Assembly (NCBI GenBank): GCA_022825085.1
Contig: JAJDYQ010000056.1
Coordinates: 1 to 44,313 of the forward strand
Direction of reading: 5' to 3'
DNA from: Gammaproteobacteria bacterium
Lineage (GTDB): Bacteria; Pseudomonadota; Gammaproteobacteria; JAJDYQ01
DNA: 44,313 nucleotides
Numbering within the stretch: the stretch's first letter is position 1; every line of letters starts with the position of its first letter. Positions 1,907-18,145 of the stretch are shown one piece after another. The notes under the pieces are model-generated. The model worked only from the letters and a program-made list of their open reading frames with translations. It did not search any database and was not told the origin of the DNA. The translations under genes and the position numbers were made by a program.

Positions 1907-3031
1907 ATGTCTAATATCGTTATTGCCGGTTCCGGGTTCGCCGCCTGTACGGCTGTCCGTGCGCTGAGAAAAAACGGCTTCCGTGACTATATTACGCTGG
2001 TCTCACCCAGGGCCGAGTTGTTTTATTATCCCAGCCTTATCCGGGTCGCCGATGGCGGTCGCAAGGAATCCGATCTGCGGGTTTGTCTGGATGGCTTTTT
2101 CAGGCGACATGGCGTCAATCATGTGGCGGCTTCCGTTACCGGGCTGGATAGTCATAACAGGGCCCTGGATACCAGCCGGGGCAAGCTGGAATACGATTAT
2201 CTGCTTATCGCCAGTGGCGGGCGCTATATCAGAAAGTTACCCGGCCTGGAGCTTGCCCATATCGCCTGCGCAGGCTGGCAGGAGACGAATAGCTGGGCAC
2301 AAAAATTAAATTCCATGTCGTCCGGCAGTCTTGCCTTTGGCTTTGCCGGTAATCCGAATGAGCCTTCTGCCATGCGCGGCGGTCCTGTCTTCGAGTTTTT
2401 GTTCGGCACGGATACGTTGTTGAGGCGGCAGGGTCGGCGCAACAGGTTTGAGCTGCATTTTTTCTCTCCCGCCAAAAAGCCAGGGGCCAGAATGGGAGAT
2501 AAGGCCGTCGAGCGCATACTGGGTGAAATGCAGCGCCGCCATATCACGATTCATGCAGGCCATAAAATGAAGCGGTTCGAGGCCGGCAGGGTTGTTACCG
2601 ACGGCGAGGAGTTTGCCGGTGATCTGATATTGTTTGTGCCGGGTATGACTGGCCCGGACTGGGCATCGAATAGCGGGCTGGCTTTGTCGGCAGGTGGCTT
2701 TTTTCAGGCTACGGAGCATTGCAGGGTGACCGGCAGCGAGCGTGTGTATGTCGCTGGCGATGCCGGGAGTTTCCCCGGTCCGGACTGGAAACCGAAGCAG
2801 GCACATATGGCTGATTTGCAGGCTGAGACTGCCGCTAAAAATATATTGAATCAGATTGCCGGCCGTGAAGATGATCATACGTTCAAAACCGAGTTGATTT
2901 GTATTATTGATACGCTGGATACCGGCACTATGGTGTACCGGGATTGTCAGCGTATGTTTCAGATTAAGGCCAGACCATTTCACTGGGCCAAGTCCTGGTT
3001 TGAGTGGCGTTATCTGCGCCCCTATCGGTAG
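1907..3031 (+). CDS. sqrF: Sulfide:quinone oxidoreductase, type VI (SqrF-like)
   Basis: 374 aa; N-terminal GxGxA FAD fold; GNPNEPSAMRGGPVFEF; AGD..PKQAHMA. Cys at 121, 272 and 332 (counted), and no Cys in the 150-165 loop, as I recall for type VI SQRs. Confidence 0.8.
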   Translation: MSNIVIAGSGFAACTAVRALRKNGFRDYITLVSPRAELFYYPSLIRVADGGRKESDLRVCLDGFFRRHGVNHVAASVTGLDSHNRALDTSRGKLEYDYLLIASGGRYIRKLPGLELAHIACAGWQETNSWAQKLNSMSSGSLAFGFAGNPNEPSAMRGGPVFEFLFGTDTLLRRQGRRNRFELHFFSPAKKPGARMGDKAVERILGEMQRRHITIHAGHKMKRFEAGRVVTDGEEFAGDLILFVPGMTGPDWASNSGLALSAGGFFQATEHCRVTGSERVYVAGDAGSFPGPDWKPKQAHMADLQAETAAKNILNQIAGREDDHTFKTELICIIDTLDTGTMVYRDCQRMFQIKARPFHWAKSWFEWRYLRPYR

Positions 3032-3202
3032 CTGTCTCTGTGGCATCAGTGGCTGACTCTTGCCGCTGTCAGGTTGATGTGGGTAAAGTTGTTTGTGCGC
3101 CTTTGATTGGTTTTTTTATTATAATATGTGAGGTTTTTTAGATGAGTCGCTTTTAATACGGTGCTCTTCTATATCTTTCGACATGTATCTGGAGATTCTA
3201 AA

Positions 3203-3523
3203 ATGAAAGTCGTTTATTTTGCAGTTGTCGCCGCAGCCATGACCGCTGCCACCTGCCCCGCCATGGCCGCCGATGCGGATGCCGGTCAGGCTGCCTTTAA
3301 TGCCAAGGGCTGTGTCGGTTGCCACGGTGTCGCCGGCAGCAGTCCGATTCCGGCTAATCCTCCCAATCCGGCTCTGAACGGCAAGGGCGCTGACTATATC
3401 AAGCAGGCTTTGACGGATTACAAGTCCGGCGCAAAGCAGAATGCCACCATGAATGCCATGGCAGGCCTGTTGAGCGACGAGGATATTGATAACGTTGCAG
3501 CCTATCTGGGTGCCCAGGAGTAG
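3203..3523 (+). CDS. Periplasmic monoheme c-type cytochrome (c553/c554-like)
   Basis: Signal peptide MKVVYFAVVAAA...AMA; CVGCH heme motif; distal Met (TMNAMA); GGAG RBS at 3191; start ATG at 3203. Confidence 0.9.
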   Translation: MKVVYFAVVAAAMTAATCPAMAADADAGQAAFNAKGCVGCHGVAGSSPIPANPPNPALNGKGADYIKQALTDYKSGAKQNATMNAMAGLLSDEDIDNVAAYLGAQE

Positions 3524-4025: not shown

Positions 4026-5627
4026 CTAACGGTTGTCCGCTTTAATCATATCGCTGGCCTTTTCTGCAATCATAATGGTCGGGGCATTGGTGTTGCCCGA
4101 TGTGATCTGCGGCATAATGGAGGCGTCTGCAATACGCAGGTTTTTTATTCCGTAGGCCCTGAGTCTTTCATCTACTACGCTTGTACCATCATCTGTTCCC
4201 ATTTTACAGGTACCAACAGGATGGTAGATGGTCTGGCTGTAGTTTTTTGCCGCTTCCAGCAGTTCGTCATCGCTCTGGTAGTCTCTGCCCGGAATGTATT
4301 CTTCTGTAATCACTTCTTTCAACGGTGAGCTGTTGGCAATTTTACGCGCCACTTTTATGGCACCAATGGCGGTCTTTCTGTCTTTTTCCGTAGCAAGGTA
4401 GTTGGGAATTATGTCCGGCTTTTCCAGATAGTCGTTGCTTTTTATGGCAATGCTGCCTCTACTCTCCGGACGCAGGATGCACACCGAGGAGGTGAAGGCT
4501 GAAAATGGATGTACTCCATCTCCCGGTTTGTCGGCACTCAGGGGTTGCATGTGAAATTGAATGTCAGGGCGTGAACCGTCCAGTCCGGTATTGGTAAAGG
4601 CGTAAACCTGACTGGCACTCAGGGTAAGCGGACCCGTTCTGAATAATATGTACTGCATACCTACCAGGGTCCTTTTCCACCAGCGATTCAGCTCGTCGTT
4701 CAGTGTGTTTTCTCTGGTTTTATAGACCAGCCGAATTTGCAGGTGGTCCTGCAGATTTTGCCCAACCGCCGGATTGTCGTACTCTGGCTTGATATTGTGT
4801 GCGACAAGTAATTTTTCATCTCCAATACCCGATAGCTGTAATAACTTTGGCGAGTTGATCGCACCGGCACTCAGTATTGTTTCCAGAGCTGCATGGACTT
4901 CTTGCTCTCTGCCATTCTGTATGTATTGTACGCCAATCGCTTTTTTGTCCTTGATTATAATTTTTCTGACGTTTGCCCCACAAATAATGGTGAGATTTTT
5001 TCGGTGCTTGACGGGGTGTAAAAATGCCTTCGCGCTGCTGTAGCGGAAGCCTTTGTAGGCAGTCTGCTGGAAATAGCCTACTCCCTGCTGTTGTCTGCCA
5101 TTGCAGTCATTGTTCAGCGGTATGCCGGCAGCAACGCTGGCCTTGATGAATTTGTCGGCGATGGGCCGCCTCAGGCGCAGCTTCGAGACTCGCAGTTCTC
5201 CGCTATCACCGTGATATTCGCTTTTACCTTCTTCATTGTTTTCTGATTTTATAAAATACGGCAGAATGTCGTTATAACTCCAGCCTTTGTTGCCCAGCGC
5301 TTCCCAGTTGTCGTAGTCGTGTTTGTCACCGCGAATGTACAACAGGCCGTTGAGTGAGCTGGACCCCCCCAGAACCCTGCCTCTTGGCCATTCGATAGAT
5401 CGGTTGTTGATACCTTTGTCTTTATTGGTTTTGTACATCCAGTCGAACTGTGGATTGTGCATGGTTTTGAAGTAACCTACCGGTATGTGTATCCAGGGGC
5501 TGTTGTCTCTGCCTCCTGCCTCCAGTATCAGCACTTTTTTGCTGTTGTCTTCCGAAAGTCTGTTGGCCAGTACGCATCCGGCCGAACCGGCACCAATAAT
5601 AATGTAGTCGTAATGGTTGCTGCCCAT
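4026..5627 (-). CDS. GMC-family FAD oxidoreductase (choline dehydrogenase / isethionate dehydrogenase IseJ-like)
   Basis: DYIIIGAGSAGCVLANRLSE, PRGRVLGGSSSLNG, VGQNLQDH, YHPVGTCKMG, GNTNAPTIMIAEK. Confidence 0.92.
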   Translation of the reverse strand: MGSNHYDYIIIGAGSAGCVLANRLSEDNSKKVLILEAGGRDNSPWIHIPVGYFKTMHNPQFDWMYKTNKDKGINNRSIEWPRGRVLGGSSSLNGLLYIRGDKHDYDNWEALGNKGWSYNDILPYFIKSENNEEGKSEYHGDSGELRVSKLRLRRPIADKFIKASVAAGIPLNNDCNGRQQQGVGYFQQTAYKGFRYSSAKAFLHPVKHRKNLTIICGANVRKIIIKDKKAIGVQYIQNGREQEVHAALETILSAGAINSPKLLQLSGIGDEKLLVAHNIKPEYDNPAVGQNLQDHLQIRLVYKTRENTLNDELNRWWKRTLVGMQYILFRTGPLTLSASQVYAFTNTGLDGSRPDIQFHMQPLSADKPGDGVHPFSAFTSSVCILRPESRGSIAIKSNDYLEKPDIIPNYLATEKDRKTAIGAIKVARKIANSSPLKEVITEEYIPGRDYQSDDELLEAAKNYSQTIYHPVGTCKMGTDDGTSVVDERLRAYGIKNLRIADASIMPQITSGNTNAPTIMIAEKASDMIKADNR

Positions 5628-5633
5628 GCCGGC

Positions 5634-6860
5634 CTAAAATCTGTCGTAGTCAATCGCGCCACGGTCCAGGCGTTTGAATGATGAGGTCATGGGGTATTTC
5701 AAGCCGGTAGCGCAGTTATACAGGACGGCGGTGTCACTTTTGTCAATCCAGCCCTCTTCAAGCGCCGTTTTGCAGGCTACCGCTGTTGCCGCTCCTTCCG
5801 GGCATAAAAGCAGGCCGTCTTTGTCGGCAATGTCGTCTCGCATTTTCATAATGTCGTCATCGCTGACGGATACCGCAAAACCACCCGATTCATTGACAGC
5901 CTGTAAAATTAAAAAATCTCCAATGGCAACAGGCACGCGAATGCCGGCAGCAACCGTTTGGGCATTCTCCCAGGGAACCGCTGTGGTCTGTTTGTTTTCC
6001 CAGGCCCTGACGATGGGAGCACAGGTCTGCGCCTGTACGACAACCATTCTTGGCAGTTTACCGCTTATCCAGCCCATGGCTTTCAGCTCGTTAAATGCCT
6101 TCCACATGCCTATCATTCCGGTACCGCCACCAGTCGGATAGAAAATAACGTCCGGCAGTTGCCAGCCCATTTGTTCGGCAAGTTCCATACCCATCGTTTT
6201 CTTGCCTTCAATGCGGTATGGTTCTTTCAATGTCGATACGTCGAACCAGCCTACAGCTTCTTTGCCCTCGCCTACTATCCTGCCACAGTCATTTATCAAT
6301 CCATCTATCAGATAAACATCGCCACCCTGTTGCTTGATTTCTGCAACGTTTATTGTCGGTGTATCATCCGGACAGAATACCGTTGTCTTTATGCCGGCAT
6401 GGGTCGCATAGGCCGCCATGGCCGCACCCGCATTGCCATTGGTCGGTATGGCCAGATGCTTAATGCCAAGCTCTTTGGCCATGGATACCGCCAGACATAA
6501 ACCTCTGGCCTTAAATGAGCCGGTGGGCAGCCGGCCTTCGTCTTTGACGATTATCTTGCCACTGGATGATCCCAGAACTTCACTGGATCGGTTCAGGGGA
6601 ATAAGGGGGGTAATAACTTCTCCCAGTGAAATCTGATTTTCGCTTTTTGTGACTGGCAAAAAGTTTTCATATCGCCAGAATCCGTTTTTACTGCTGGCTT
6701 TGATTGTCTGTTTGCTGACATGCTCTGCCAATGCCTCCAGGTCATATTTGACCAGCAGGGGCTTGCCCGCCTCGGACAAGGTTTGAATTGTATCTTTCTC
6801 GTATTTTTTGCCGGTCAACGAGCATTCCAGATGGGTAACGAAGGTGTTTATTTGTGACAT
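5634..6860 (-). CDS. Threonine-synthase-like PLP enzyme (fold type II), function unknown
   Basis: DEGRLPTGSFKARG (PLP lysine), PTNGNAG, EGKKTMG, PTGGGTG, NCATGLKY. Sits in the sulfonate cluster, not with thrA/thrB. Confidence 0.85.
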   Translation of the reverse strand: MSQINTFVTHLECSLTGKKYEKDTIQTLSEAGKPLLVKYDLEALAEHVSKQTIKASSKNGFWRYENFLPVTKSENQISLGEVITPLIPLNRSSEVLGSSSGKIIVKDEGRLPTGSFKARGLCLAVSMAKELGIKHLAIPTNGNAGAAMAAYATHAGIKTTVFCPDDTPTINVAEIKQQGGDVYLIDGLINDCGRIVGEGKEAVGWFDVSTLKEPYRIEGKKTMGMELAEQMGWQLPDVIFYPTGGGTGMIGMWKAFNELKAMGWISGKLPRMVVVQAQTCAPIVRAWENKQTTAVPWENAQTVAAGIRVPVAIGDFLILQAVNESGGFAVSVSDDDIMKMRDDIADKDGLLLCPEGAATAVACKTALEEGWIDKSDTAVLYNCATGLKYPMTSSFKRLDRGAIDYDRF

Positions 6861-6873
6861 TTATGGTTCCTTG

Positions 6874-8190
6874 TCAGTCGTACAGTACCCCTGGCAGCCA
6901 AAGCGCCAGTTGGGGAAAAATAATAATCAGTAACAGTCCCAGCAGTTGGATCCCTATAAACTGGAACATGCCCTTGTAGATGTCTTTCAGATCCCATTCG
7001 GGGACGACCCCTTTCAAGAAATAGGCCGACAGGGCAACAGGGGGCGAAAGCCAGGCAGTTTGCAAATTAACGGCAACCAGAATGGCAAACCAGGTCAGGT
7101 TAAATCCCAGTTGTTCGACCAGAGGCAGCAGAATGGGAATAATAATGAGGACTATGGGTACCCACTCCAGTGGCCAGGCCAGCAAAAAAATCAGCACCAT
7201 GATGATGGCCAGAATAATGTATGGCGACAGTTCAAGGGTCAGCAGAAATTCGGTCATCATTATCGGGGTGCCGAGTCGCGAAAAGACAGCACCGAAAAAG
7301 TTGGATGCCGCCACCAGAACCATAATCAGCACGGTAATTTCCAGGGTTTTCATCAGGGCATCCTGAAAAACTCCAAAGGTCAGCCGTCTGTATATCAGGG
7401 TGAGGAAAATGGCACCGATAACCCCTATCGCTGCCCCTTCTGTCGGTGTTGCCAAACCAAATAAAATACTGCCCAGTGCCGCAGCAACCAGAACAGCAGG
7501 AGGCAGCAGGCCTCTGGCAAATTCAAGCCAGACTGTGCCCATGGAGGCACTGCGCAGATGTTCGGGAAGTTTGGGGCCCAGACTCGGATTGATGTAACAG
7601 CGAATCAGTGTGTAGGCCATGTACATGGTAGCCAGCATCAGCCCCGGTATGATGGCGGCCGCAAACAGTTCAGTAACCGGCACTTCCAGTATGGGTCCCA
7701 TCACGACCAGCATGATACTGGGCGGGATCAGTATGCCAAGGGTTCCTCCTGCGGTAATTGCTCCGGCTGCCATGCGTACATCGTATTGGGAACGCTGCAT
7801 GATTTTGCCGGACATAATACCCAGAATAGTCACGGATGCGCCAACAATCCCGGTTGCTGCCCCAAAGATGGTCGATACCACCAGTACCGCAATGAACAGG
7901 GCACCATTTACTCTGGACAGCAGCAGTTGTATTGACTGGAAAAGCCTTTCCATCAGATCCGCTTTTTCCATCAAAATACCCATAAATACAAAAAGCGGTA
8001 TGGCAGCCAGAGTCTGTTCCAGCATGATGTCGGCAAACTGGAAGGTGATCAGATAAAAAACCAGATCACCAAAGCCCAGCAGGCCAAATACCAGACCCAG
8101 AAATATCAGCGTAAACGAGATGGGGAAGCCAATAAATATGGCTATCAGCATCACCGCGATTAAAACAAAACCCAGTGCCTCCGGGCTCAC
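6874..8190 (-). CDS. dctM: TRAP transporter large permease (DctM)
   Basis: Polytopic membrane protein with GGTLGILIPPS, TPTEGAA, LQTAWLSPP. GTG start at 8190 overlaps the upstream stop (TAGTG). Confidence 0.92.
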   Translation of the reverse strand: MSPEALGFVLIAVMLIAIFIGFPISFTLIFLGLVFGLLGFGDLVFYLITFQFADIMLEQTLAAIPLFVFMGILMEKADLMERLFQSIQLLLSRVNGALFIAVLVVSTIFGAATGIVGASVTILGIMSGKIMQRSQYDVRMAAGAITAGGTLGILIPPSIMLVVMGPILEVPVTELFAAAIIPGLMLATMYMAYTLIRCYINPSLGPKLPEHLRSASMGTVWLEFARGLLPPAVLVAAALGSILFGLATPTEGAAIGVIGAIFLTLIYRRLTFGVFQDALMKTLEITVLIMVLVAASNFFGAVFSRLGTPIMMTEFLLTLELSPYIILAIIMVLIFLLAWPLEWVPIVLIIIPILLPLVEQLGFNLTWFAILVAVNLQTAWLSPPVALSAYFLKGVVPEWDLKDIYKGMFQFIGIQLLGLLLIIIFPQLALWLPGVLYD

Positions 8191-8795
8191 TATGGCCACC
8201 TGTTATGTTTGATCGTGTAGGCACATTTCAGAAGCTCGGAGATGCCCTGGATAACAAGCAGTACAATACCGACAGGCAGCACTGATTTAATGGGACCCAT
8301 GTGCGGCATCCACGCGGTATCCATGCCAAGTTCTCCTCGAATCCAGGCGGTAAAGGCATAGTCCGAGGCTGCAATTAAAAACAGAAACATGCCCGGAAAG
8401 AAAAAGACGATATATAAAAAGGCATCCACTTTTGCCTGAGTGGATGCCTGCCAGTTTCTGTAAATGAAATCGGCACGAATATGTACTCCTTTCAACAACC
8501 CGTAAGCCGCCCCCAACATAAACAGGGCACCACTGAACATGCGGCTGACATCGTAGGCCCAGAGTGTCGGCGCATTGAGAAAGTGGCGCATGAATACTTC
8601 ATAGCCCATAGCCAGAAATATCGGTACCACAAGCCAGCATATTGCAATGGCGAGGCGGTGATTAAACCTGTCAATCCGTCCAATCACCGCCGCCATCCAG
8701 GGCGCCATATCATCCGGCAGATTGCCAATACCACGGGATTCGGCAATCAGCTCATCGGTAATGTCAAGCTCGGCACCCTTATCTGAAGCAGGCAT
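8190..8795 (-). CDS. dctQ: TRAP transporter small permease (DctQ)
   Basis: Four TM segments; YEVFMRHFLNAPTLWAYD and HIRAD motifs; between DctP and DctM. Confidence 0.92.
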   Translation of the reverse strand: MPASDKGAELDITDELIAESRGIGNLPDDMAPWMAAVIGRIDRFNHRLAIAICWLVVPIFLAMGYEVFMRHFLNAPTLWAYDVSRMFSGALFMLGAAYGLLKGVHIRADFIYRNWQASTQAKVDAFLYIVFFFPGMFLFLIAASDYAFTAWIRGELGMDTAWMPHMGPIKSVLPVGIVLLVIQGISELLKCAYTIKHNRWP

Positions 8796-8803
8796 CAGGT
8801 TGG

Positions 8804-9895
8804 CTACTTTAGCTGGTCTGCAAACGCCTTACCCAGCTTTGCATTGGAGGTCTGTGCGCCTGACCAGAAAGGAACTACCGTTTTGGCGAACTCCTTTTGA
8901 GAGTCCCAGACACGCTTGAAGAAAGCATTCTCTTCTGCATTTTTATCGAGAATGTTTTTGGCCGCATCCATATAGGCAGGAAAGTAGTCGGCAGGGGTGT
9001 CATGCAGAATGACTCCATGATTTTCTGTCAGGTCCCTCAGCGCCTTGCCATTTTCGTGAATCCTGTAGGCAACAGCACGCATAAGCGAGGCATCGGCAGC
9101 AACTTCAATGGCGCGCTTTTGTTTGTCAGTCAGCTTACGCCAGACATCACCATTGATATATAAGTCCGCATTCACCACAACCTGATGCAAACCCTGCAGG
9201 TAGTAGTGTTTCAGTACCTTTTGAAAGCCAAATACACTGTCCGGCTTGGGGCAGCACCATTCCGCTGCATCGATGGTGCCTTTTTCCAGCGCGGGCAGGA
9301 TGTCACCTCCACCCATGGCTACTGCGGCAACGCCTATGTCGTTGTAGGTCTGACCCGGTATGCCCGGCGGTGTCCTGAAACGATATTTACGGAAGTCATC
9401 CATGCTTTTTATGGGTTCCTTGAACCAACCCAGCGCCTCAGGGCCCACAGGCTGGAGCATAAGGCCCTTGACATCAAGGCCCATTTCATCCCATAACTGG
9501 TCATACAATTCCTTGCCACCACCGTTCAGATACCATGACATAAAGGCAAAGTTATCCAGCCCAACACCTGCACCTGCCACCGGTGAACCAAACAGCATGG
9601 CCGCCGGGTGATATCCGGACCAGTAGTGCGTCCACGCAAAACCGGCACCAATAAGGCCCTTGTCAACAGCCTCGATGACCTGCTTGTTACCGACAACAGC
9701 ATTAGCCGGCAAGACAGTGAATGTCACTTCTCCATCGGTCAGGTCACTCACATTTTTGGCAAAATCCTTGAGCATGACAATCTCGTCTGCCTTCGATGGA
9801 ATGACCGATTGAACTTTAATATCGACCGCTGAATAGGCGAGATTACCCGCCAGCAACAAGGCCGCTGAACTGACTAAAAGCAATATCCTTTTCAT
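8804..9895 (-). CDS. dctP: TRAP substrate-binding protein (DctP/TakP-type), probably sulfonate-binding
   Basis: Signal peptide; FRTPPG; ILPALEKGTIDAAEW; GGAGGA RBS. The substrate is inferred from neighbouring genes only. Confidence 0.9.
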   Translation of the reverse strand: MKRILLLVSSAALLLAGNLAYSAVDIKVQSVIPSKADEIVMLKDFAKNVSDLTDGEVTFTVLPANAVVGNKQVIEAVDKGLIGAGFAWTHYWSGYHPAAMLFGSPVAGAGVGLDNFAFMSWYLNGGGKELYDQLWDEMGLDVKGLMLQPVGPEALGWFKEPIKSMDDFRKYRFRTPPGIPGQTYNDIGVAAVAMGGGDILPALEKGTIDAAEWCCPKPDSVFGFQKVLKHYYLQGLHQVVVNADLYINGDVWRKLTDKQKRAIEVAADASLMRAVAYRIHENGKALRDLTENHGVILHDTPADYFPAYMDAAKNILDKNAEENAFFKRVWDSQKEFAKTVVPFWSGAQTSNAKLGKAFADQLK

Positions 9896-10157: not shown

Positions 10158-11156
10158 CTATTCTGAATCAGGCGGGTTAAGAATGATTTTTATGGCGTCC
10201 GCCTGCCCATCCAGCAGTTGCTTAAATACCATTGGCCCTTCAGACAAGGCATAGTTTTTATGCCAGTCCAGTTTGCCAAAGCCTCCCCTGGACATGATAT
10301 CGACGACTTCTATAAATTCATCGTGAGTGTAGGTATAGCTACCCACCACAGTAATCTGCGCCAGCGTCATCTTTCGAGGCTCGAATCCGTACTCGGCATC
10401 ACCCAGCCCGATATGTACAAGCACTCCACCGGGGGAAATGCTATCTATGGCATTTTTGCGGGTTATGCTGGAACCAACGGCATCAAGAATGACATCCGCT
10501 TCATGGACGGTGTTGTCGGTGGACGGATTACGGACTTCAATATCTATTGCCTGTGCAAGCAGATCTATGCGTTTGCTGTTCGTTTCCAGCATGACAATGT
10601 TATCGCAACCCAGATACTTCAGGGCCAGAGCAGATGCCAGACCTATGGCCCCACCGCCATAAATTAAAATACGGGCAGATTGCAGCGGTCTTATGCTATG
10701 TTCCTGCGCCAGCTTTACACCGTGCCAGGCAGTTGACAGGGGTTCCGCCAGAGAAGCCTGCTCAAAAGACAGGTTATCATCCACCGTCATCAGATTGCGC
10801 TCCGGTATGGCAAGCCATTGCGCGAAGGTGCCTGGCCTGGGTTCCATGCTGACAATCTGCCTCGATGTGCACAGGTTACTGTGACCATTCAGGCAGTACC
10901 AGCATTGGGTACAGGTCACCAGCGGATCAATAACAACTCTCTCGGATTTGCCACCTATCTGCGCTATGCCGCTGGCTTCATGTCCGAGAATCAGGGGCGG
11001 CGGCCTTCTGCTGTCATGCCCAACATAGGCGTGCATATCCGAACCACAAATACCGGATGCCCTGACCTTGACCAGAACTTCATCTTCTTCGGGACCGGGC
11101 TTCGGGCAGGAAGCGTACTCCAGTTTTTCAATATCTGTAAGGATCAGTGCTTGCAT
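10158..11156 (-). CDS. hpsP: Zn-dependent dehydrogenase HpsP (DHPS dehydrogenase)
   Basis: GICGSDMHAYVGHD.RRP.PLILGHE; structural Zn CxxCxxC-x7-C; RQIVSM.PR.G; order hpsN-hpsO-hpsP. Confidence 0.8.
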   Translation of the reverse strand: MQALILTDIEKLEYASCPKPGPEEDEVLVKVRASGICGSDMHAYVGHDSRRPPPLILGHEASGIAQIGGKSERVVIDPLVTCTQCWYCLNGHSNLCTSRQIVSMEPRPGTFAQWLAIPERNLMTVDDNLSFEQASLAEPLSTAWHGVKLAQEHSIRPLQSARILIYGGGAIGLASALALKYLGCDNIVMLETNSKRIDLLAQAIDIEVRNPSTDNTVHEADVILDAVGSSITRKNAIDSISPGGVLVHIGLGDAEYGFEPRKMTLAQITVVGSYTYTHDEFIEVVDIMSRGGFGKLDWHKNYALSEGPMVFKQLLDGQADAIKIILNPPDSE

Positions 11157-11193: not shown

Positions 11194-11973
11194 TCATTTT
11201 GCTGTATAGCCCCCGTCAACCGGCAAAACCTGGCCTGTGACATAGCGGCAGGCACTGGAAGCAAAAAACAGTGTCGCCCCTTCCAGATCCGACATTTCTC
11301 CATTACGGCCTATCGCTGTCATATCCGCATGGTGCATCAACATGTCTTTATCTTTATATACTGGTGCTGTCATTCTGGTCGGAAAAAATCCTGGAGCAAT
11401 GGCATTGCAGTTAATGCCGTAACCGGACCATGCCTCTGCCATAGCCCTCGTCAACTGGACTATGGCTCCCTTGGAGGCACCATAAGCCATGCCGTTTTTG
11501 AAGGCGCGATAGGATTGCAGCGAGGCGATATTGATTATGTTGCCACCACCTTTTTGTCGCATGCCACTGATCAGCGTCCTTGCCAGAAAGAAAGGCACTG
11601 CGGTGTTGATATTCAACGTTTGTTGCCAGTCTTCAATCTGAATATCATCCACCGCCTGTCTCAAATTAACACCTGCCGCGTTGATCAGAATATCGACAGA
11701 ATCAAACTCTTCGCCAATCTGCGCAACTGCCGGTTCAATATTTTCCAGAACGCTTAAATCCACCGTTTTGCAGATACATCTGCCAGTGGGGTTTTCTGCC
11801 AATACTGCCTGACGTGTCTCTTTCAAACCCTGCTCATCCCTGCCAATTAAAACAGTGTCCGCGCCGGCCCTTGCCAGTGTCTTTGCCATGTGTGCCCCAA
11901 TTCCGGAGCTCGCCCCCGTACATAAGGCAACTCTGTCTCGCAGGGAAAACATGGCTTCCAGATAGGTACTCAT
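11194..11973 (-). CDS. hpsO: Short-chain dehydrogenase HpsO (DHPS dehydrogenase)
   Basis: TGASSGIG; INIASLQ..RAF..G.AYGASKG; QLTRAMAEAWS; ends VDGGYTAK; follows hpsN. Confidence 0.82.
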   Translation of the reverse strand: MSTYLEAMFSLRDRVALCTGASSGIGAHMAKTLARAGADTVLIGRDEQGLKETRQAVLAENPTGRCICKTVDLSVLENIEPAVAQIGEEFDSVDILINAAGVNLRQAVDDIQIEDWQQTLNINTAVPFFLARTLISGMRQKGGGNIINIASLQSYRAFKNGMAYGASKGAIVQLTRAMAEAWSGYGINCNAIAPGFFPTRMTAPVYKDKDMLMHHADMTAIGRNGEMSDLEGATLFFASSACRYVTGQVLPVDGGYTAK

Positions 11974-11977
11974 TAAT

Positions 11978-13282
11978 TCAGCCTTCTATTCCGGTATTAA
12001 ATTTTTGTCCCGGAAAATAATGCTTGAGGCGAATATCACCAGTGCGGGCATGGGCCTCCATGCCTTCCAGCCTTGATAGTCTGGCCGTTACCGTTGCCAG
12101 CTCCCTGTTGGCCTGCCTGTCCGCCTTTTGCGTGGTGACAATTTTGATAAATTTATGTACCGACAGGCCGCCGGTGTAGTGACCGGCTCCTCTGGTCGGG
12201 AGAATGTGGTTGGTACCTGAACATTTATCACCAAATGCGACGGTCGTTTCTTCACCAACAAACAGCGAACCATAGTTTTTCAGGTGCCTTTCGTACCAGT
12301 CCGGGTTGCCGGTTTGTATCTCCAGGTGCTCGGGCGCGTATTCATCACTTAGTTCAACCGCTTCTTCATCGTTGTCACACAGGATAACTTCACCGTAATC
12401 ACGCCAGGATTCAGTCGCCGTCTGCCGTTGTTCTTCAGGCAGGGCATCGATAATGTGCGGTACCCGCTCGATAACTTCTGCGGCCAGTTTTTCACTGGTC
12501 GTAATCAGCCATGCCGGTGAATCAACACCATGCTCTGCCTGCCCGACCAGATCATAGGCAACCAGCTCTGCATCGGCATCGCCATCGGCAATAATCAGTA
12601 TTTCTGTTGGCCCGGCAAACAGGTCTATGCCAACCTCGCCATACAGTATTCTTTTTGCTTCAGCCACAAAACGATTGCCCGGACCGACCAGAATATTGGC
12701 CTTATGACCAGTAAACAGGCCAAACGCCATGGCAGCAATGCCCTGAACACCTCCCATTGCCAGAATCTGATCAGCACCGCATAAGTCCATGGTGTATAAA
12801 ATGGCCGGATGAATGCCGTTATATTCTGGCTTTGGCGTGGAAGCAGCAATAACATTGCTGACGCCGGCGACTCTGGCAGTAGTAATGCTCATAATGGCTG
12901 AGGCAACATGGGCATAGCGACCACCCGGCACGTAGCAGCCGGCTGTCTGGATCGGTATCAGCTTTTGCCCCGCCCAGACTCCCGGTGACAGCTCGCATTC
13001 AAACTCCCGGATGCTATCGAGTTGCTGGCGGGCGAAGCTGCTGACCTTGTCGTGAGCAAACTGTATATCGTCTTTCAACTGCTGGCTGAGGCTGTCTTTT
13101 GCTTGCGCTATTGTTTTTTGATCGACCACAATATCGCCGTGCCAGCCATCAAATTTTTTGCCATAGTCAATGGCCTGTTGCTCGCCATTCTGCCTGATGT
13201 TCTGCAGAATATCATTCGTAATGTTTCTGGTTTCCTGTTCATTGGAACCAGGTGTTACCACTGCTTTTTTCAGATACTGCAT
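11978..13282 (-). CDS. hpsN: Sulfopropanediol (DHPS) 3-dehydrogenase HpsN, a histidinol dehydrogenase homologue
   Basis: HisD fold with HpsN-type signatures: MQYLKKA, GCYVPGGRYAHVASAIM, VGPGN.FVAEAKR, QAEHG.DSP, GEETTVAFGDK.SGTNH, EGMEAHAR. GGAGG RBS before ATG 13282; no his operon context. Confidence 0.9.
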   Translation of the reverse strand: MQYLKKAVVTPGSNEQETRNITNDILQNIRQNGEQQAIDYGKKFDGWHGDIVVDQKTIAQAKDSLSQQLKDDIQFAHDKVSSFARQQLDSIREFECELSPGVWAGQKLIPIQTAGCYVPGGRYAHVASAIMSITTARVAGVSNVIAASTPKPEYNGIHPAILYTMDLCGADQILAMGGVQGIAAMAFGLFTGHKANILVGPGNRFVAEAKRILYGEVGIDLFAGPTEILIIADGDADAELVAYDLVGQAEHGVDSPAWLITTSEKLAAEVIERVPHIIDALPEEQRQTATESWRDYGEVILCDNDEEAVELSDEYAPEHLEIQTGNPDWYERHLKNYGSLFVGEETTVAFGDKCSGTNHILPTRGAGHYTGGLSVHKFIKIVTTQKADRQANRELATVTARLSRLEGMEAHARTGDIRLKHYFPGQKFNTGIEG

Positions 13283-13395
13283 GGTGTCCTCCAAGGATTA
13301 TTTGTAGTTTTAGGGAAGTCCCCAATCAGGGGCCCCCTTGCATAATAAAGAATATTTACGGTACCGGCACAGCCAATATATGCAGCAGCTCATGG

Positions 13396-13704: not shown

Positions 13705-14057
13705 AAAACTCTTCCACAGCAGTGCGGAATGATTCGGGTTTAGCTGGGCGAGACATGGTTGTTTGCATTACTTTTAAAAATATCCGTTATCCGATTGTAC
13801 CCATAGCCTGCGCCGGGTGACAATGTATTTTTTTGTCCTCCAGCCGGCTCTGTATGGCGGTATCCAGAGTCAGACTTTTGCCGGCTTCGCTCTGTCCGGT
13901 CTGCCCATCACAAAAAAACCAGACTGCTTTCCTGCCAGACTTTATATCAGTCCGGGCAAGCCATATAATAAGCAAAACCCGATTACAGGATAGATTTGTG
14001 TCTGCATCCAGAGTTTGGCACTACACCCCGCATTCTGTCTTTGCGCTGCATGACTGG

Positions 14058-14792
14058 ATGAACAGATTTCGCAGCAGAAAAAAATGGCGGGGTCTCACCT
14101 TCCTGATCACCTGTATCGCTGTCGCCAATCTGGCCTTCAGCGATTCCGTTTATGCTGATATTGATGGTGTGCTTGAAGCCGAGGGGTGGTCTGAGCTGCG
14201 CTTCGATGACAAGCCTGCCAATCAATTTACTGCGGTTTCCGGAACATCCTCTGTCATTCGTATTGACACGCAGCAGTCTGTTTCGATTGCCTATCTGCCA
14301 TTCTCCGGGAGCATTGATCTGGAGCAAACTCCGGTTTTGTCATTTTCCTGGCAGTATCAGGGGCCAGCCCCGGATACCGATCTGACAAGGAAAGGCGGCG
14401 ATGACAGAATCGCGGCTGTTTATGTTGCTTTTCCCTATCAACCTGAAAAAGCCAGTATCAAAGACAGGCTGCTGCGCCCGTTTGTCGAGGCCCGGCAGGG
14501 AAAGGATGCACCGGGCCGTGTGCTGACCTACTTATGGGGTGGTGGAGCAGCCAGAGGTGAGTGGTTTGAAAACCCATATGCAGGAAAGGCCGGATGGATG
14601 CAGATCAGGCAGCTACCGTCTGATCCGGAACAGGTCTGGTTCTCGCATGATATTGATATTGCTGCTGATTTTATGGATCGGTTTGGCTATAAAGCTCCTT
14701 CTCCAAGCTATGTGGCGATTACGGCGGACAGTGATGATACCGATGCAATGTTCAGTGTTTTTATCAGGGAGCTGGCATTTGGTAAAAAATAA
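14058..14792 (+). CDS. DUF3047-family exported protein
   Basis: Signal peptide from M76 of the ORF; LSFSW, GGDDRIAAVYV, LTYLWGG, ADSDDT resemble DUF3047. Confidence 0.7.
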   Translation: MNRFRSRKKWRGLTFLITCIAVANLAFSDSVYADIDGVLEAEGWSELRFDDKPANQFTAVSGTSSVIRIDTQQSVSIAYLPFSGSIDLEQTPVLSFSWQYQGPAPDTDLTRKGGDDRIAAVYVAFPYQPEKASIKDRLLRPFVEARQGKDAPGRVLTYLWGGGAARGEWFENPYAGKAGWMQIRQLPSDPEQVWFSHDIDIAADFMDRFGYKAPSPSYVAITADSDDTDAMFSVFIRELAFGKK

Positions 14793-17017: not shown

Positions 17018-17890
17018 TTAATCACGCCTTTCCATCATACCGGCGATGATCGGAGCCAGTATGACTTCCATGGCAAACCCCATCTTGCCACCCGGAACAA
17101 CAATTGAGTTGCGACGCGACATGAATGAATCATGAATCATGGCCAGCAGATATGGAAAATCAACATCAAATTTTTTCGGTTCCTTGAAGCGGATGACAAC
17201 AAAACTTTCATCCGGTGTTGGTATATCACGTGCAATGAAGGGGTTTGATGTATCCACTGTCGGCACACGCTGAAAGTTGACGTCGGTTTGCGAAAACTGG
17301 GGCGTGATGTAGTTAATGTAATCAGACATGCGGCGCAGGATGCTGTCAACAATCGCTTCAGCAGAATAACCACGTTCGGAATTGTCACGATGAATTTTCT
17401 GGATCCATTCCAGATTGACGATGGGCACCACACCGATACCCAGATCAACATGTTCAGCAACATTGGCCTCATCGGATTGAACCAGTCCATGCAGACCTTC
17501 GTAAAACAGGACATCCGTACCAGATTCAATGTCTTCCCAGGGAGTGAACTCGCCTGATACCTTATTGGTTCCAAGGCGAGCATTATGATGAGCTGCCTCC
17601 TCATCGCTGTGCAGATAGTAACGACGCTGACACATCCCGGTCTCACCATAGGATTTGAAGGTTTCTGCCAGACTGGAAAATTTATTCGCCTCTGGACCGA
17701 AGTGACTCAGGCTGTCTTTCTCCATCTTGAACCGCATTTCGGTTCGCTCATAGCGATGGTAACTGTCGCCTTCAATGATCGCGGGTTTGATGTTTTCGCG
17801 CAGAAAGATATGCTCAAACGCACGCTTGACTGTCGTGGTACCCGCACCGGAAGAACCGGTAACAGCAACAACAGGGTATTTGCGAGACAT
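17018..17890 (-). CDS. prkB: Phosphoribulokinase (proteobacterial class)
   Basis: MSRKYPVVAVTGSSGAGTT, EGDSYHRY, FYEGLHG, WIQKIHRD, INFQRVPTVDTSNPF; GGAG RBS; start at 17890. Confidence 0.96.
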   Translation of the reverse strand: MSRKYPVVAVTGSSGAGTTTVKRAFEHIFLRENIKPAIIEGDSYHRYERTEMRFKMEKDSLSHFGPEANKFSSLAETFKSYGETGMCQRRYYLHSDEEAAHHNARLGTNKVSGEFTPWEDIESGTDVLFYEGLHGLVQSDEANVAEHVDLGIGVVPIVNLEWIQKIHRDNSERGYSAEAIVDSILRRMSDYINYITPQFSQTDVNFQRVPTVDTSNPFIARDIPTPDESFVVIRFKEPKKFDVDFPYLLAMIHDSFMSRRNSIVVPGGKMGFAMEVILAPIIAGMMERRD

Positions 17891-18145
17891 GATGTGCTCC
17901 TGCTTTCGTGGTCTGCGGCCCGTCATAGCGGGTCGGGCAGAATGGAAAAATTTATTGCCGAACCTCTCTATATCGGCCAATTATACATTTTATCTCAGGC
18001 GGCACCTGCCCGGAAATAAGTAAATCTTATACAGGGTGCGAAAGTTGATATGATGTTCGGGTTTTATGCGGGAATACGGCTGGTCTGTGCAAAAAATCGT
18101 ATTATGGCCTTTACTGCCCCAACAGGTGCAAACCCAGAATTCTCT

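What the first reader, a model, noticed from the sequence alone, without database searches (positions are those of the whole stretch)
5634..6860. Threonine-synthase-like enzyme as a candidate sulfite-eliminating lyase
It has a full fold-type-II PLP motif set but sits inside a sulfonate transporter operon, away from thrA/thrB. Known precedents: archaeal cysteate synthase is a ThrC homologue that does C-S chemistry with sulfite, and CuyA is a fold-type-II PLP cysteate sulfo-lyase. Hypothesis: it eliminates sulfite from an amino-sulfonate. One route would be GMC oxidising cysteinolate towards cysteate, then this enzyme releasing sulfite, pyruvate and ammonia.
Basis: inference. Interest (0 to 1): 0.7.

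Follow-up and report, generated by a model that had tools for sequence, protein, structure and literature searches.

The report
Misnamed threonine synthase in sulfonate operon
A gene that databases call "threonine synthase" is really a second, differently built vitamin-B6 enzyme wedged into an operon for eating algal sulfonates; it is a good but unproven candidate for a new enzyme that splits sulfite off cysteate.

Summary
Window 5634-6860 (-) is an intact 408-aa fold-type-II PLP enzyme. It starts 13 nt after a TRAP permease gene and ends 6 nt before a GMC flavoprotein gene. It belongs to NCBIfam NF006050/PRK08197 "threonine synthase", but it is not the housekeeping enzyme. A canonical thrC lies beside hom on another contig. 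All 11 carrier genomes checked also have a canonical thrC. Four of the five ThrC phosphate-site residues, as I recall them, are replaced.

The locus is an organosulfonate locus: hpsN-hpsO-hpsP, then dctPQM-thrC-like-GMC. Relatives carry the same TRAP/GMC/hpsNOP module without the thrC-like gene, one of them with suyAB. Within the genus, the operon, HpsN and Xsc-Pta co-occur (4 genomes with all, 3 with none). SuyB, CuyA-type, ComC-type and ComE enzymes were not detected.

In alphaproteobacteria, 67-71%-identical homologues sit next to CuyC-like and HpsN genes, which make L-cysteate.

My best reading (about 0.37) is an L-cysteate sulfite-eliminating lyase. Most family members have unrelated neighbours, so the function remains unproven.

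The parts
5634..6860 (-). ThrC-like fold-type-II PLP enzyme (P0001, 408 aa), NCBIfam NF006050/PRK08197; candidate cysteate-acting lyase
4026..5627 (-). GMC flavoprotein oxidoreductase (P0002, 533 aa), IseJ-like candidate isethionate dehydrogenase
6874..8199 (-). TRAP large permease DctM
8190..8795 (-). TRAP small permease DctQ
8804..9895 (-). TRAP solute-binding protein DctP (P0005). Orthologues of 68-86% identity sit in hpsNOP/GMC clusters. Probable DHPS/isethionate binder.
10158..11156 (-). Zn-dependent alcohol dehydrogenase (HpsP-like). Stays with the TRAP-ThrC-like-GMC module in all four genomes of the genus that carry it.
11194..11973 (-). SDR dehydrogenase (HpsO-like)
11978..13294 (-). 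HpsN, sulfopropanediol 3-dehydrogenase of the HisD family. Published substrates of homologues are (R)-DHPS and L-cysteinolate.
   Evidence: PMC12814064
3161..3523 (+). Small cytochrome c, convergent with the GMC gene; possible electron acceptor of the GMC enzyme (inference only)

Best explanation
P0001 is a ThrC-fold PLP enzyme that has lost the O-phosphohomoserine phosphate site. In this genus it has been inserted into a DHPS/isethionate uptake-and-oxidation operon (dctPQM-[thrC-like]-iseJ-like GMC, with hpsNOP upstream).

Proposed mechanism (inferred, not shown):
1. It binds L-cysteate as an external aldimine on K117.
2. It abstracts the alpha-proton.
3. It eliminates sulfite from C-beta.
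4. It releases 2-aminoacrylate, which hydrolyses to pyruvate and ammonium.

L-cysteate would come from HpsN acting on L-cysteinolate. Alternatively it would come from HpsN-made sulfolactate via sulfopyruvate and a general aminotransferase. The enzyme would then be a racemase-independent counterpart of CuyB+CuyA and a functional stand-in for SuyAB.

The C2 branch (isethionate -> GMC -> sulfoacetaldehyde -> Xsc -> acetyl phosphate -> Pta) runs in parallel.

Shown: gene, fold, motifs, operon structure, paralogy, co-occurrence and neighbourhoods. Inferred: substrate, reaction and direction.
For: (1) Not a classical ThrC.
- TIGR00260 scores 140 bits, below its 167 cut-off.
- A canonical thrC is present here and in 11 of 11 other carrier genomes.
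- ThrC motifs are replaced family-wide: SFKDRG>SFKARG, STGNTS>PTNGNAG, VNSVNPYR>VSTLKEPYR, PVGNAGN>PTGGGTG. This removes 4 of the 5 phosphate ligands of T. thermophilus ThrC (T88, N154, S155, N188; residue list from memory) and keeps R160.
- The SxGNAG and GGGxG motifs resemble Ser/Thr dehydratases.

(2) Tight operon position: 13-nt and 6-nt junctions. The position is kept in four species at 86-100% identity.

(3) The same module exists without it.
- dctPQM-GMC-ZnADH (L242).
- GMC-dctPQM-hpsN-SDR-ZnADH (L243).
- suyAB-hpsN-SDR-ZnADH-gntR-dctMQP/GMC in Ca. Pseudothioglobus-like contigs (L112).
So the ThrC-like gene is a lineage-specific addition where suyAB is absent.

(4) Within the genus, the ThrC-like operon, HpsN and Xsc-Pta are present in G000, G001, G003 and G005 and absent in G002, G004 and G006. 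No genome in the genus has SuyB, Ldh_2/ComC, a CuyA-type enzyme or ComE.

(5) Independent alphaproteobacterial loci with 67-71%-identical homologues:
- L037: ABC-CuyC-like-HpsN, divergent from the ThrC-like gene.
- L223: TauA-like ABC transporter + class-III aminotransferase / ThrC-like / 119 bp / HpsN-CuyC-like.
- L026: CuyC-like gene overlapping the ThrC-like start by 4 nt.
- L029: CuyC-like...OpuAC-ABC...ThrC-like.
- L021: two TauE genes.
- L199: two TauD genes.
- L198: RidA 35 bp upstream, which fits an enamine-releasing lyase.

(6) CuyC plus HpsN make L-cysteate (PMC12814064). That paper scored 'CuyA' neighbours only by PF00291, which also covers this family.
Against: - Most homologues, including 68-71%-identical ones and all Bryobacterales, lie in unrelated, housekeeping-like neighbourhoods. 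The active-site motifs are invariant across all of them, which suggests one general function.
- A Bilophila wadsworthia 'threonine synthase' (E5Y294) beside a tricarboxylate transporter showed no cysteate sulfo-lyase activity (PMC11193023). Whether it belongs to this family is unknown.
- This MAG has no CuyC orthologue.
- The TRAP system probably imports non-amine sulfonates, so a sulfolactate dehydrogenase and an aminotransferase would still be needed and were not identified.
- Sulfolactate could simply be excreted.
- G038 carries a 63% homologue without HpsN.
- The neighbourhood enrichment is post hoc.
Confidence: 0.37

Rival explanations
1. A housekeeping-type amino-acid lyase unrelated to sulfonates, for example a Ser/Thr or other beta-substituted amino-acid dehydratase. 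It is merely co-transcribed here, and the sulfonate neighbourhoods are coincidence or reflect ammonia/pyruvate metabolism.
For: Most family loci have unrelated neighbours. The motifs resemble dehydratases. RidA is adjacent in L198. The active site is invariant from soil Acidobacteria to marine bacteria.
Against: The gene is inserted precisely between dctM and the GMC gene and is retained in four species. It is repeatedly adjacent to CuyC-like/HpsN/TauA-type genes in other classes. The genomes already encode IlvA-type dehydratases.
Confidence: 0.2
2. A beta-replacement enzyme that handles sulfite in the other direction or by exchange. Examples: cysteate + H2O <-> serine + sulfite; or a sulfite/thiosulfate-capturing synthase making cysteate or S-sulfocysteine from an activated serine. 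It would buffer the sulfite released by Xsc.
For: ThrC and cysteate synthase chemistry ends in nucleophile addition to an unsaturated PLP intermediate. The CapA2 cysteate synthase is a structural match (rank 22). Some homologues lie near TauE sulfite exporters, a SulP permease, a Cys/Met PLP enzyme and an oxyanion-type ABC system.
Against: The cysteate synthase model TIGR03844 scores 82 bits against a cut-off of 325. The phosphate-site residues needed for O-phosphoserine are replaced. Making a sulfonate inside a sulfonate-degrading operon would be futile.
Confidence: 0.15
3. A PLP lyase acting on a carboxylate-free amino-sulfonate (taurine, cysteinolate or homotaurine). It would eliminate sulfite directly, in the manner of ethanolamine-phosphate phospho-lyase.
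For: The operon context with C2/C3 sulfonate genes. A TauA-like transporter and a class-III aminotransferase lie beside the L223 homologue.
Against: The Asn loop that binds the substrate alpha-carboxylate in fold-type-II enzymes is invariant (G142-N143-A144). No fold-type-II precedent is known to me.
Confidence: 0.08
4. A genuine second threonine synthase isozyme, as the NCBIfam name says.
For: NF006050 scores 625 bits against a cut-off of 303. The best sequence and fold matches are threonine synthases. R216 (equivalent to ThrC R160) is kept.
Against: It is below the TIGR00260 cut-off. It always accompanies a canonical thrC. It is dispensable within the genus. Four of five phosphate ligands are replaced in the whole family. 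It has no hom/thrB context. I found no experimental paper behind the family name.
Confidence: 0.07

Closest known systems
Threonine synthase ThrC (EC 4.2.3.1; short bacterial type, PDB 6NMX, 2ZSJ, 1V7C, 2D1F)
   Same: Same fold, including the catalytic lysine position. About 29-33% identity over the aligned region, TM-score 0.72-0.77 normalised to the query and 0.85-0.89 normalised to the target. The PYRIEG arginine is kept.
   Different: Extra N-terminal domain of about 60 aa. The phosphate-site and neighbouring motifs are systematically replaced. Always a second copy beside a canonical thrC. Operon context is sulfonate catabolism, not hom/thrB.
[quoted passage not shown]
   Same: Fold-type-II PLP superfamily (PF00291). 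The proposed reaction is the same: cysteate -> pyruvate + NH4+ + sulfite. Both are found beside CuyC and HpsN genes.
   Different: CuyA belongs to the D-cysteine desulfhydrase/ACC deaminase family. TIGR01275 finds no such protein in this genus and does not hit P0001. CuyA needs D-cysteate and a racemase. No activity has been shown for P0001.
Cysteate synthase (archaeal TIGR03844; bacterial CapA/CapA2, PDB 9K3C)
   Same: A ThrC-derived enzyme doing C-S chemistry with sulfite at C-beta. Structural match TMq 0.79.
   Different: 19% identity. HMM score 82 bits against a cut-off of 325. It is biosynthetic and uses O-phosphoserine, whereas the phosphate-site residues are replaced here.
SuyAB (R)-sulfolactate sulfo-lyase in suyAB-hpsNOP-TRAP-GMC clusters (for example Ca. 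Pseudothioglobus-like contigs)
   Same: Holds the C3 desulfonating role in an otherwise homologous gene cluster (DctP 68%, DctM 76%, GMC 68%, HpsN 57% identity).
   Different: Unrelated fold (altronate dehydratase-like). Acts on a hydroxy acid without PLP. Absent from this genus.
iseKLM-iseJ isethionate module with xsc-pta (Ruegeria pomeroyi, Cupriavidus necator)
   Same: TRAP transporter plus GMC dehydrogenase. The GMC is 71% identical to one encoded next to xsc-pta. Xsc-Pta is present in this genome.
   Different: No PLP enzyme is part of the described ise clusters (PMC4334477). I could not compare directly with characterised IseJ or IseK sequences.

Membership tests
Threonine synthase (EC 4.2.3.1) | Scores above the curated cut-off of the general thrC model TIGR00260 | tested here: not met
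   139.7-140.1 bits against a cut-off of 167.1. The canonical copy on C61 scores 263.7.
Threonine synthase (EC 4.2.3.1) | Conserved O-phosphohomoserine phosphate-binding residues (T. thermophilus T88, N154, S155, R160, N188; list recalled from Omi 2003 / Murakawa 2011, not re-read here) | tested here: not met
   Alignment with the Aquifex and B. subtilis ThrC and three short ThrCs gives A, T, L, R, G at these positions. Only the arginine is kept, and this is invariant in 40 family members.
Threonine synthase (EC 4.2.3.1) | Is the genome's threonine-pathway enzyme (single or essential copy, hom/thrB context) | tested here: not met
   A canonical thrC lies beside hom on C61. 11 of 11 other carrier genomes also have one. 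The gene is absent from 3 of 7 genomes of the genus.
Threonine synthase (EC 4.2.3.1) | Converts O-phosphohomoserine to threonine and phosphate | not testable with these tools
   Needs an enzyme assay or thrC complementation.
NCBIfam NF006050 / PRK08197 ('threonine synthase') | Whole-protein score above the curated cut-off | tested here: met
   625.3 bits against 303, aligned over residues 5-399. I found no experimental basis for the family name.
Fold-type-II PLP enzymes (PF00291) | PALP domain with Schiff-base lysine, Asn loop and Gly-rich PLP-phosphate loop | tested here: met
   219 bits. K117, G142-N143-A144 and G244-G246/G248 are invariant. Confident ThrC-like model.
Cysteate synthase (TIGR03844 / CapA) | Score above the model cut-off; O-phosphoserine phosphate site | tested here: not met
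   82 bits against 324.9. CapA2 9K3C is only a fold-level match at 19% identity.
CuyA cysteate sulfo-lyase (D-cysteine desulfhydrase family, TIGR01275) | Membership of the D-cysteine desulfhydrase/ACC deaminase family | tested here: not met
   A TIGR01275 search of the genome hits only the IlvA-like gene weakly (41 bits) and not C96.
CuyA cysteate sulfo-lyase (functional class) | Releases sulfite, pyruvate and ammonium from cysteate | not testable with these tools
   Context only. There is one negative published assay, on a Bilophila 'threonine synthase' of unknown relation.
HpsNOP DHPS-oxidation locus | HpsN orthologue with SDR and Zn-ADH partners and a TRAP transporter | tested here: met
   HpsN scores 523 bits to 8V35 against 251 to HisD. 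SDR and Zn-ADH are adjacent. Homologous clusters are L112 and L243.
IseJ isethionate dehydrogenase (for the neighbouring GMC gene) | GMC flavoprotein encoded with a TRAP system and feeding Xsc | tested here: inconclusive
   71% identity to a GMC directly upstream of xsc-pta. Xsc-Pta is present in the genome. No direct comparison with characterised IseJ was possible.

The most novel reading that the evidence does not exclude
The whole NF006050/PRK08197 'threonine synthase' family is misnamed. The family has at least 8,000 90%-identity clusters at E<=1e-20, the candidate cap of the search. Under this reading it is an L-cysteate-specific, racemase-independent sulfo-lyase of ThrC ancestry. That would be a fourth aerobic desulfonation route beside SuyAB, Xsc and CuyAB. 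It would close the C3-sulfonate (DHPS/cysteinolate) pathway in marine gammaproteobacteria and Kiloniellales-like alphaproteobacteria that lack SuyAB or CuyA/CuyB next to HpsN.
Probability: 0.3. Interest if true: 0.75.

Novelty: new variant of a known kind. Interest (0 to 1): 0.6.

Why it matters
DHPS, isethionate and cysteinolate are major currencies of carbon and sulfur flow from phytoplankton to bacteria. Surveys count desulfonation potential using suyAB, xsc and cuyA only.

If this ThrC-derived enzyme cleaves cysteate, lineages now scored as incomplete degraders would be complete. The cysteinolate pathway would have a shorter, racemase-free ending. Thousands of database entries called "threonine synthase" would need renaming.

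Even if the cysteate idea fails, the family is a large, conserved, uncharacterised PLP enzyme with an altered ThrC active site. It is cheap to test.

Tried and rejected
- Neighbourhood census of 80 genome loci and 80 metagenome loci. There is no family-wide conserved partner. Bryobacterales neighbours are a lytic-transglycosylase-like gene and sigma/anti-sigma genes. The metagenome scan returned mostly soil Acidobacteria and added little.
- My first crude ORF caller failed on high-GC loci. I replaced it with a GC3-weighted one.
- I rejected the idea that the family is the sole ThrC in some phyla.
- I rejected the idea that this locus has no desulfonase at all. Xsc-Pta is on contig C11.
- Promoter and terminator scans gave no more than chance.
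- Literature searches for a characterised ThrC paralogue or a ThrC-like sulfo-lyase found nothing. Weinitschke 2010 on IseJ is not held.
- Complementary distribution with CuyA does not hold in the large alphaproteobacterial genomes, which have CuyA/ACC-deaminase-family paralogues as well.
Full report
**1. The observation**

Window 5634-6860 (minus strand) is an uninterrupted 408-codon ORF (P0001).
- An AAGGA motif lies 8 nt upstream of the ATG. The ATG is 13 nt after the dctM stop, and the ORF's own TAG is 6 nt before the ATG of a GMC oxidoreductase gene.
- Pfam PALP covers residues 77-383 at 219 bits.
- An AlphaFold2 model built on 40 homologues is confident (pLDDT 92.8, pTM 0.91). Its best PDB matches are threonine synthases: B. 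subtilis 6NMX/6CGQ, Aquifex 2ZSJ, M. tuberculosis 2D1F, and Arabidopsis 2C2B at TMq 0.88. The sulfonolipid cysteate synthase CapA2 (9K3C) is at rank 22.

**2. It is not the housekeeping threonine synthase**

- NCBIfam places it firmly in NF006050/PRK08197, named 'threonine synthase' (625 bits, cut-off 303). It falls below the cut-off of the general thrC model TIGR00260 (140 against 167), and the cysteate synthase model scores 82 against 325.
- The MAG (1.95 Mb, 108 contigs, 87% complete) has a canonical 489-aa thrC on contig C61, convergent with homoserine dehydrogenase.
- Eleven other genomes that carry an NF006050-type gene all have a better-scoring canonical thrC as well. They include Bryobacterales, Sphingomonas, Blastomonas, Hwanghaeella, Halioglobus and two congeners.
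- In the genus the gene is present in 4 of 7 genomes.
- An alignment with short ThrCs shows systematic motif changes, invariant across 40 family members of 49-97% identity:
  - SFKDRG>SFKARG
  - STGNTS>PTNGNAG
  - VNSVN-PYR>VSTLKEPYR
  - PVGNAGN>PTGGGTG
  - EPASA>PEGA
  - TLTGNGLKD>YNCATGLKY
- From my memory of the T. thermophilus ThrC structures, the phosphate of O-phosphohomoserine is held by T88, N154, S155, R160 and N188. Four of these five are replaced and only the arginine remains.
- The new Asn loop (xGNAG) and Gly loop (GGGxG) look like those of serine/threonine dehydratases. The retained Asn loop argues for an alpha-amino-acid substrate.

**3. The surroundings are an organosulfonate locus**

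- Upstream on the same strand lie three genes:
  - an HpsN orthologue (523 bits to Cupriavidus HpsN 8V35, against 251 to true HisD);
  - an SDR;
  - a Zn-ADH (HpsO- and HpsP-like).
- These are followed by dctP-dctQ-dctM, the ThrC-like gene and the GMC gene.
- The binding protein's nearest solved relatives are TakP/SmoM-type proteins, but its orthologues are informative:
  - L242 (86% identity over the aligned part): dctPQM-GMC-ZnADH. This is the window's order without the ThrC-like gene.
  - L243 (80%): IclR / GMC-dctPQM-hpsN-SDR-ZnADH.
  - L112-114, Ca. Pseudothioglobus-like contigs (68%): suyA-suyB-hpsN-SDR-ZnADH-gntR-dctMQP / GMC.
- The GMC enzyme is 71% identical to one encoded as DUF599-GMC-Xsc-Pta beside a different TRAP system (L115). 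That is the published iseJ-xsc-pta logic (PMC4334477).
- TRAP plus GMC plus HpsNOP is therefore a widespread DHPS/isethionate module. The ThrC-like gene is a lineage-specific insertion into it.

**4. What the genus can and cannot do**

- Xsc (1,035 bits) and Pta are adjacent on contig C11.
- The ThrC-like operon, HpsN and Xsc are all present in G000, G001, G003 and G005, and all absent in G002, G004 and G006.
- G003 has the same contiguous hpsN-SDR-ZnADH-TRAP-ThrC-like-GMC order. In the two closed genomes, hpsN sits elsewhere and the core ZnADH-TRAP-ThrC-like-GMC unit stays together.
- No genome of the genus has any of these:
  - SuyB (PF04295);
  - Ldh_2/ComC (PF02615);
  - a CuyA-type D-cysteine-desulfhydrase-family enzyme (TIGR01275);
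  - sulfopyruvate decarboxylase beta (TIGR03846).
- The C2 route (isethionate -> sulfoacetaldehyde -> Xsc) is therefore complete. The product of HpsN (sulfolactate or cysteate) has no recognised onward enzyme. The ThrC-like protein is the only unassigned enzyme in the module.

**5. Evidence from elsewhere**

- Most homologues have unrelated neighbours.
- A minority, in other classes, point the same way:
  - L037 (Kiloniellales): ABC ATPase, CuyC-like PF01041 and HpsN (58% to the window's), divergent from a 68% ThrC-like gene.
  - L223, found in an unbiased sample of CuyC-like loci from 401 alphaproteobacterial genomes: a TauA-like binding protein, an ABC permease and a class-III aminotransferase on one side; HpsN-CuyC-like 119 bp away on the other.
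  - L026: a CuyC-like gene overlaps the ThrC-like start by 4 nt.
  - L029: both genes in one OpuAC-ABC cluster.
  - Rhodosalinus (L021): two TauE genes, a TPP enzyme, an MR/MLE enzyme and TctABC.
  - L199: two TauD genes and TctABC.
  - L198: RidA 35 bp upstream.
- CuyC (cysteinolate racemase) plus HpsN convert D-cysteinolate to L-cysteate, which CuyB and CuyA then cleave (PMC12814064).
- That paper identified 'CuyA' neighbours only by PF00291, which also covers this family. The association seen here would not have been noticed.
- Reviews up to mid-2026 list SuyAB, Xsc, CuyAB and glycyl-radical enzymes as the desulfonases (PMC13436972).

**6. Interpretation**

- The best-supported mechanism is alpha,beta-elimination of sulfite from L-cysteate, giving pyruvate and ammonium. 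I rate this at about 0.37.
- Arguments against it:
  - the many non-sulfonate contexts together with an invariant active site;
  - the negative cysteate assay on a Bilophila 'threonine synthase' of unknown family (PMC11193023);
  - the lack of a CuyC orthologue in this MAG;
  - the unidentified steps from sulfolactate to cysteate;
  - the possibility that sulfolactate is simply excreted.
- Rivals:

| Rival | Odds |
|---|---|
| Unrelated amino-acid lyase | 0.20 |
| Sulfite-handling beta-replacement enzyme | 0.15 |
| Lyase for carboxylate-free amino-sulfonates | 0.08 |
| True ThrC isozyme | 0.07 |

The GMC is IseJ-like, and HpsN is the known cysteinolate dehydrogenase.

**7. Earlier notes of this scan**

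- One follow-up on an Azospirillum operon reached a similar suspicion about NF006050.
- I treated it as a lead. My tests used different loci and agree with it, but the agreement is not independent proof.

**8. Verdict**

- The feature is real and the annotation is wrong or at least unsupported.
- The sulfonate link is credible and partly new: the insertion into a conserved DHPS/isethionate module, and the recurrence beside CuyC-HpsN.
- The biochemical function remains untested.

Noticed in passing
window 4026-5627 (-), with L112, L115, L242, L243: The GMC oxidoreductase is a constant partner of this TRAP system and of hpsNOP in several lineages, and elsewhere sits directly upstream of xsc-pta. 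Its role in DHPS clusters (isethionate dehydrogenase, or an oxidase of DHPS or sulfolactate) seems not to be described.
   Followed up: partly
own genome contig C11:23893-26700 (locus L103 8888-11716): xsc-pta pair (Xsc 1,035 bits) next to clpA, icd and class III PHA synthase phaEC with a thiolase. This is the genome's only recognised desulfonase and it lies outside the window.
   Followed up: yes
window 1907-3031 (+), 3161-3523 (+), 17018-17980 (-): An SQR-like flavoprotein, a small cytochrome c and phosphoribulokinase flank the sulfonate locus. This hints at a sulfur-oxidising mixotroph related in gene content to the SUP05/Pseudothioglobus group.
   Followed up: no
PMC12814064, section 9: The published CuyC neighbourhood network colours 'CuyA homologues' by PF00291 alone. 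ThrC-like NF006050 proteins next to CuyC would be counted as CuyA.
   Followed up: partly
L029 1-8315: A Kiloniellales cluster of a CuyC-like PLP enzyme, a DAO/GCV_T dehydrogenase, an arginase-family hydrolase and an OpuAC-type ABC transporter, upstream of a ThrC-like gene. It could be a route for a guanidino- or N-methylated amino-sulfonate.
   Followed up: no
G003:C6:5475-6322: A PALP-family gene in a congener carries several in-frame stops (1 TGA and 3 TAG in one piece), so it is probably a pseudogene.
   Followed up: no
window 13833-14792 (+): A DUF3047 protein is divergent from hpsN. The adjacency to hpsN is kept in G005, even though the TRAP operon lies 31 kb away there.
   Followed up: no
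L021/L022, L199, and PMC11193023: ThrC-like genes repeatedly lie near TctABC tripartite tricarboxylate transporters. The Bilophila 'threonine synthase' E5Y294 was also reported beside one.
   Followed up: no
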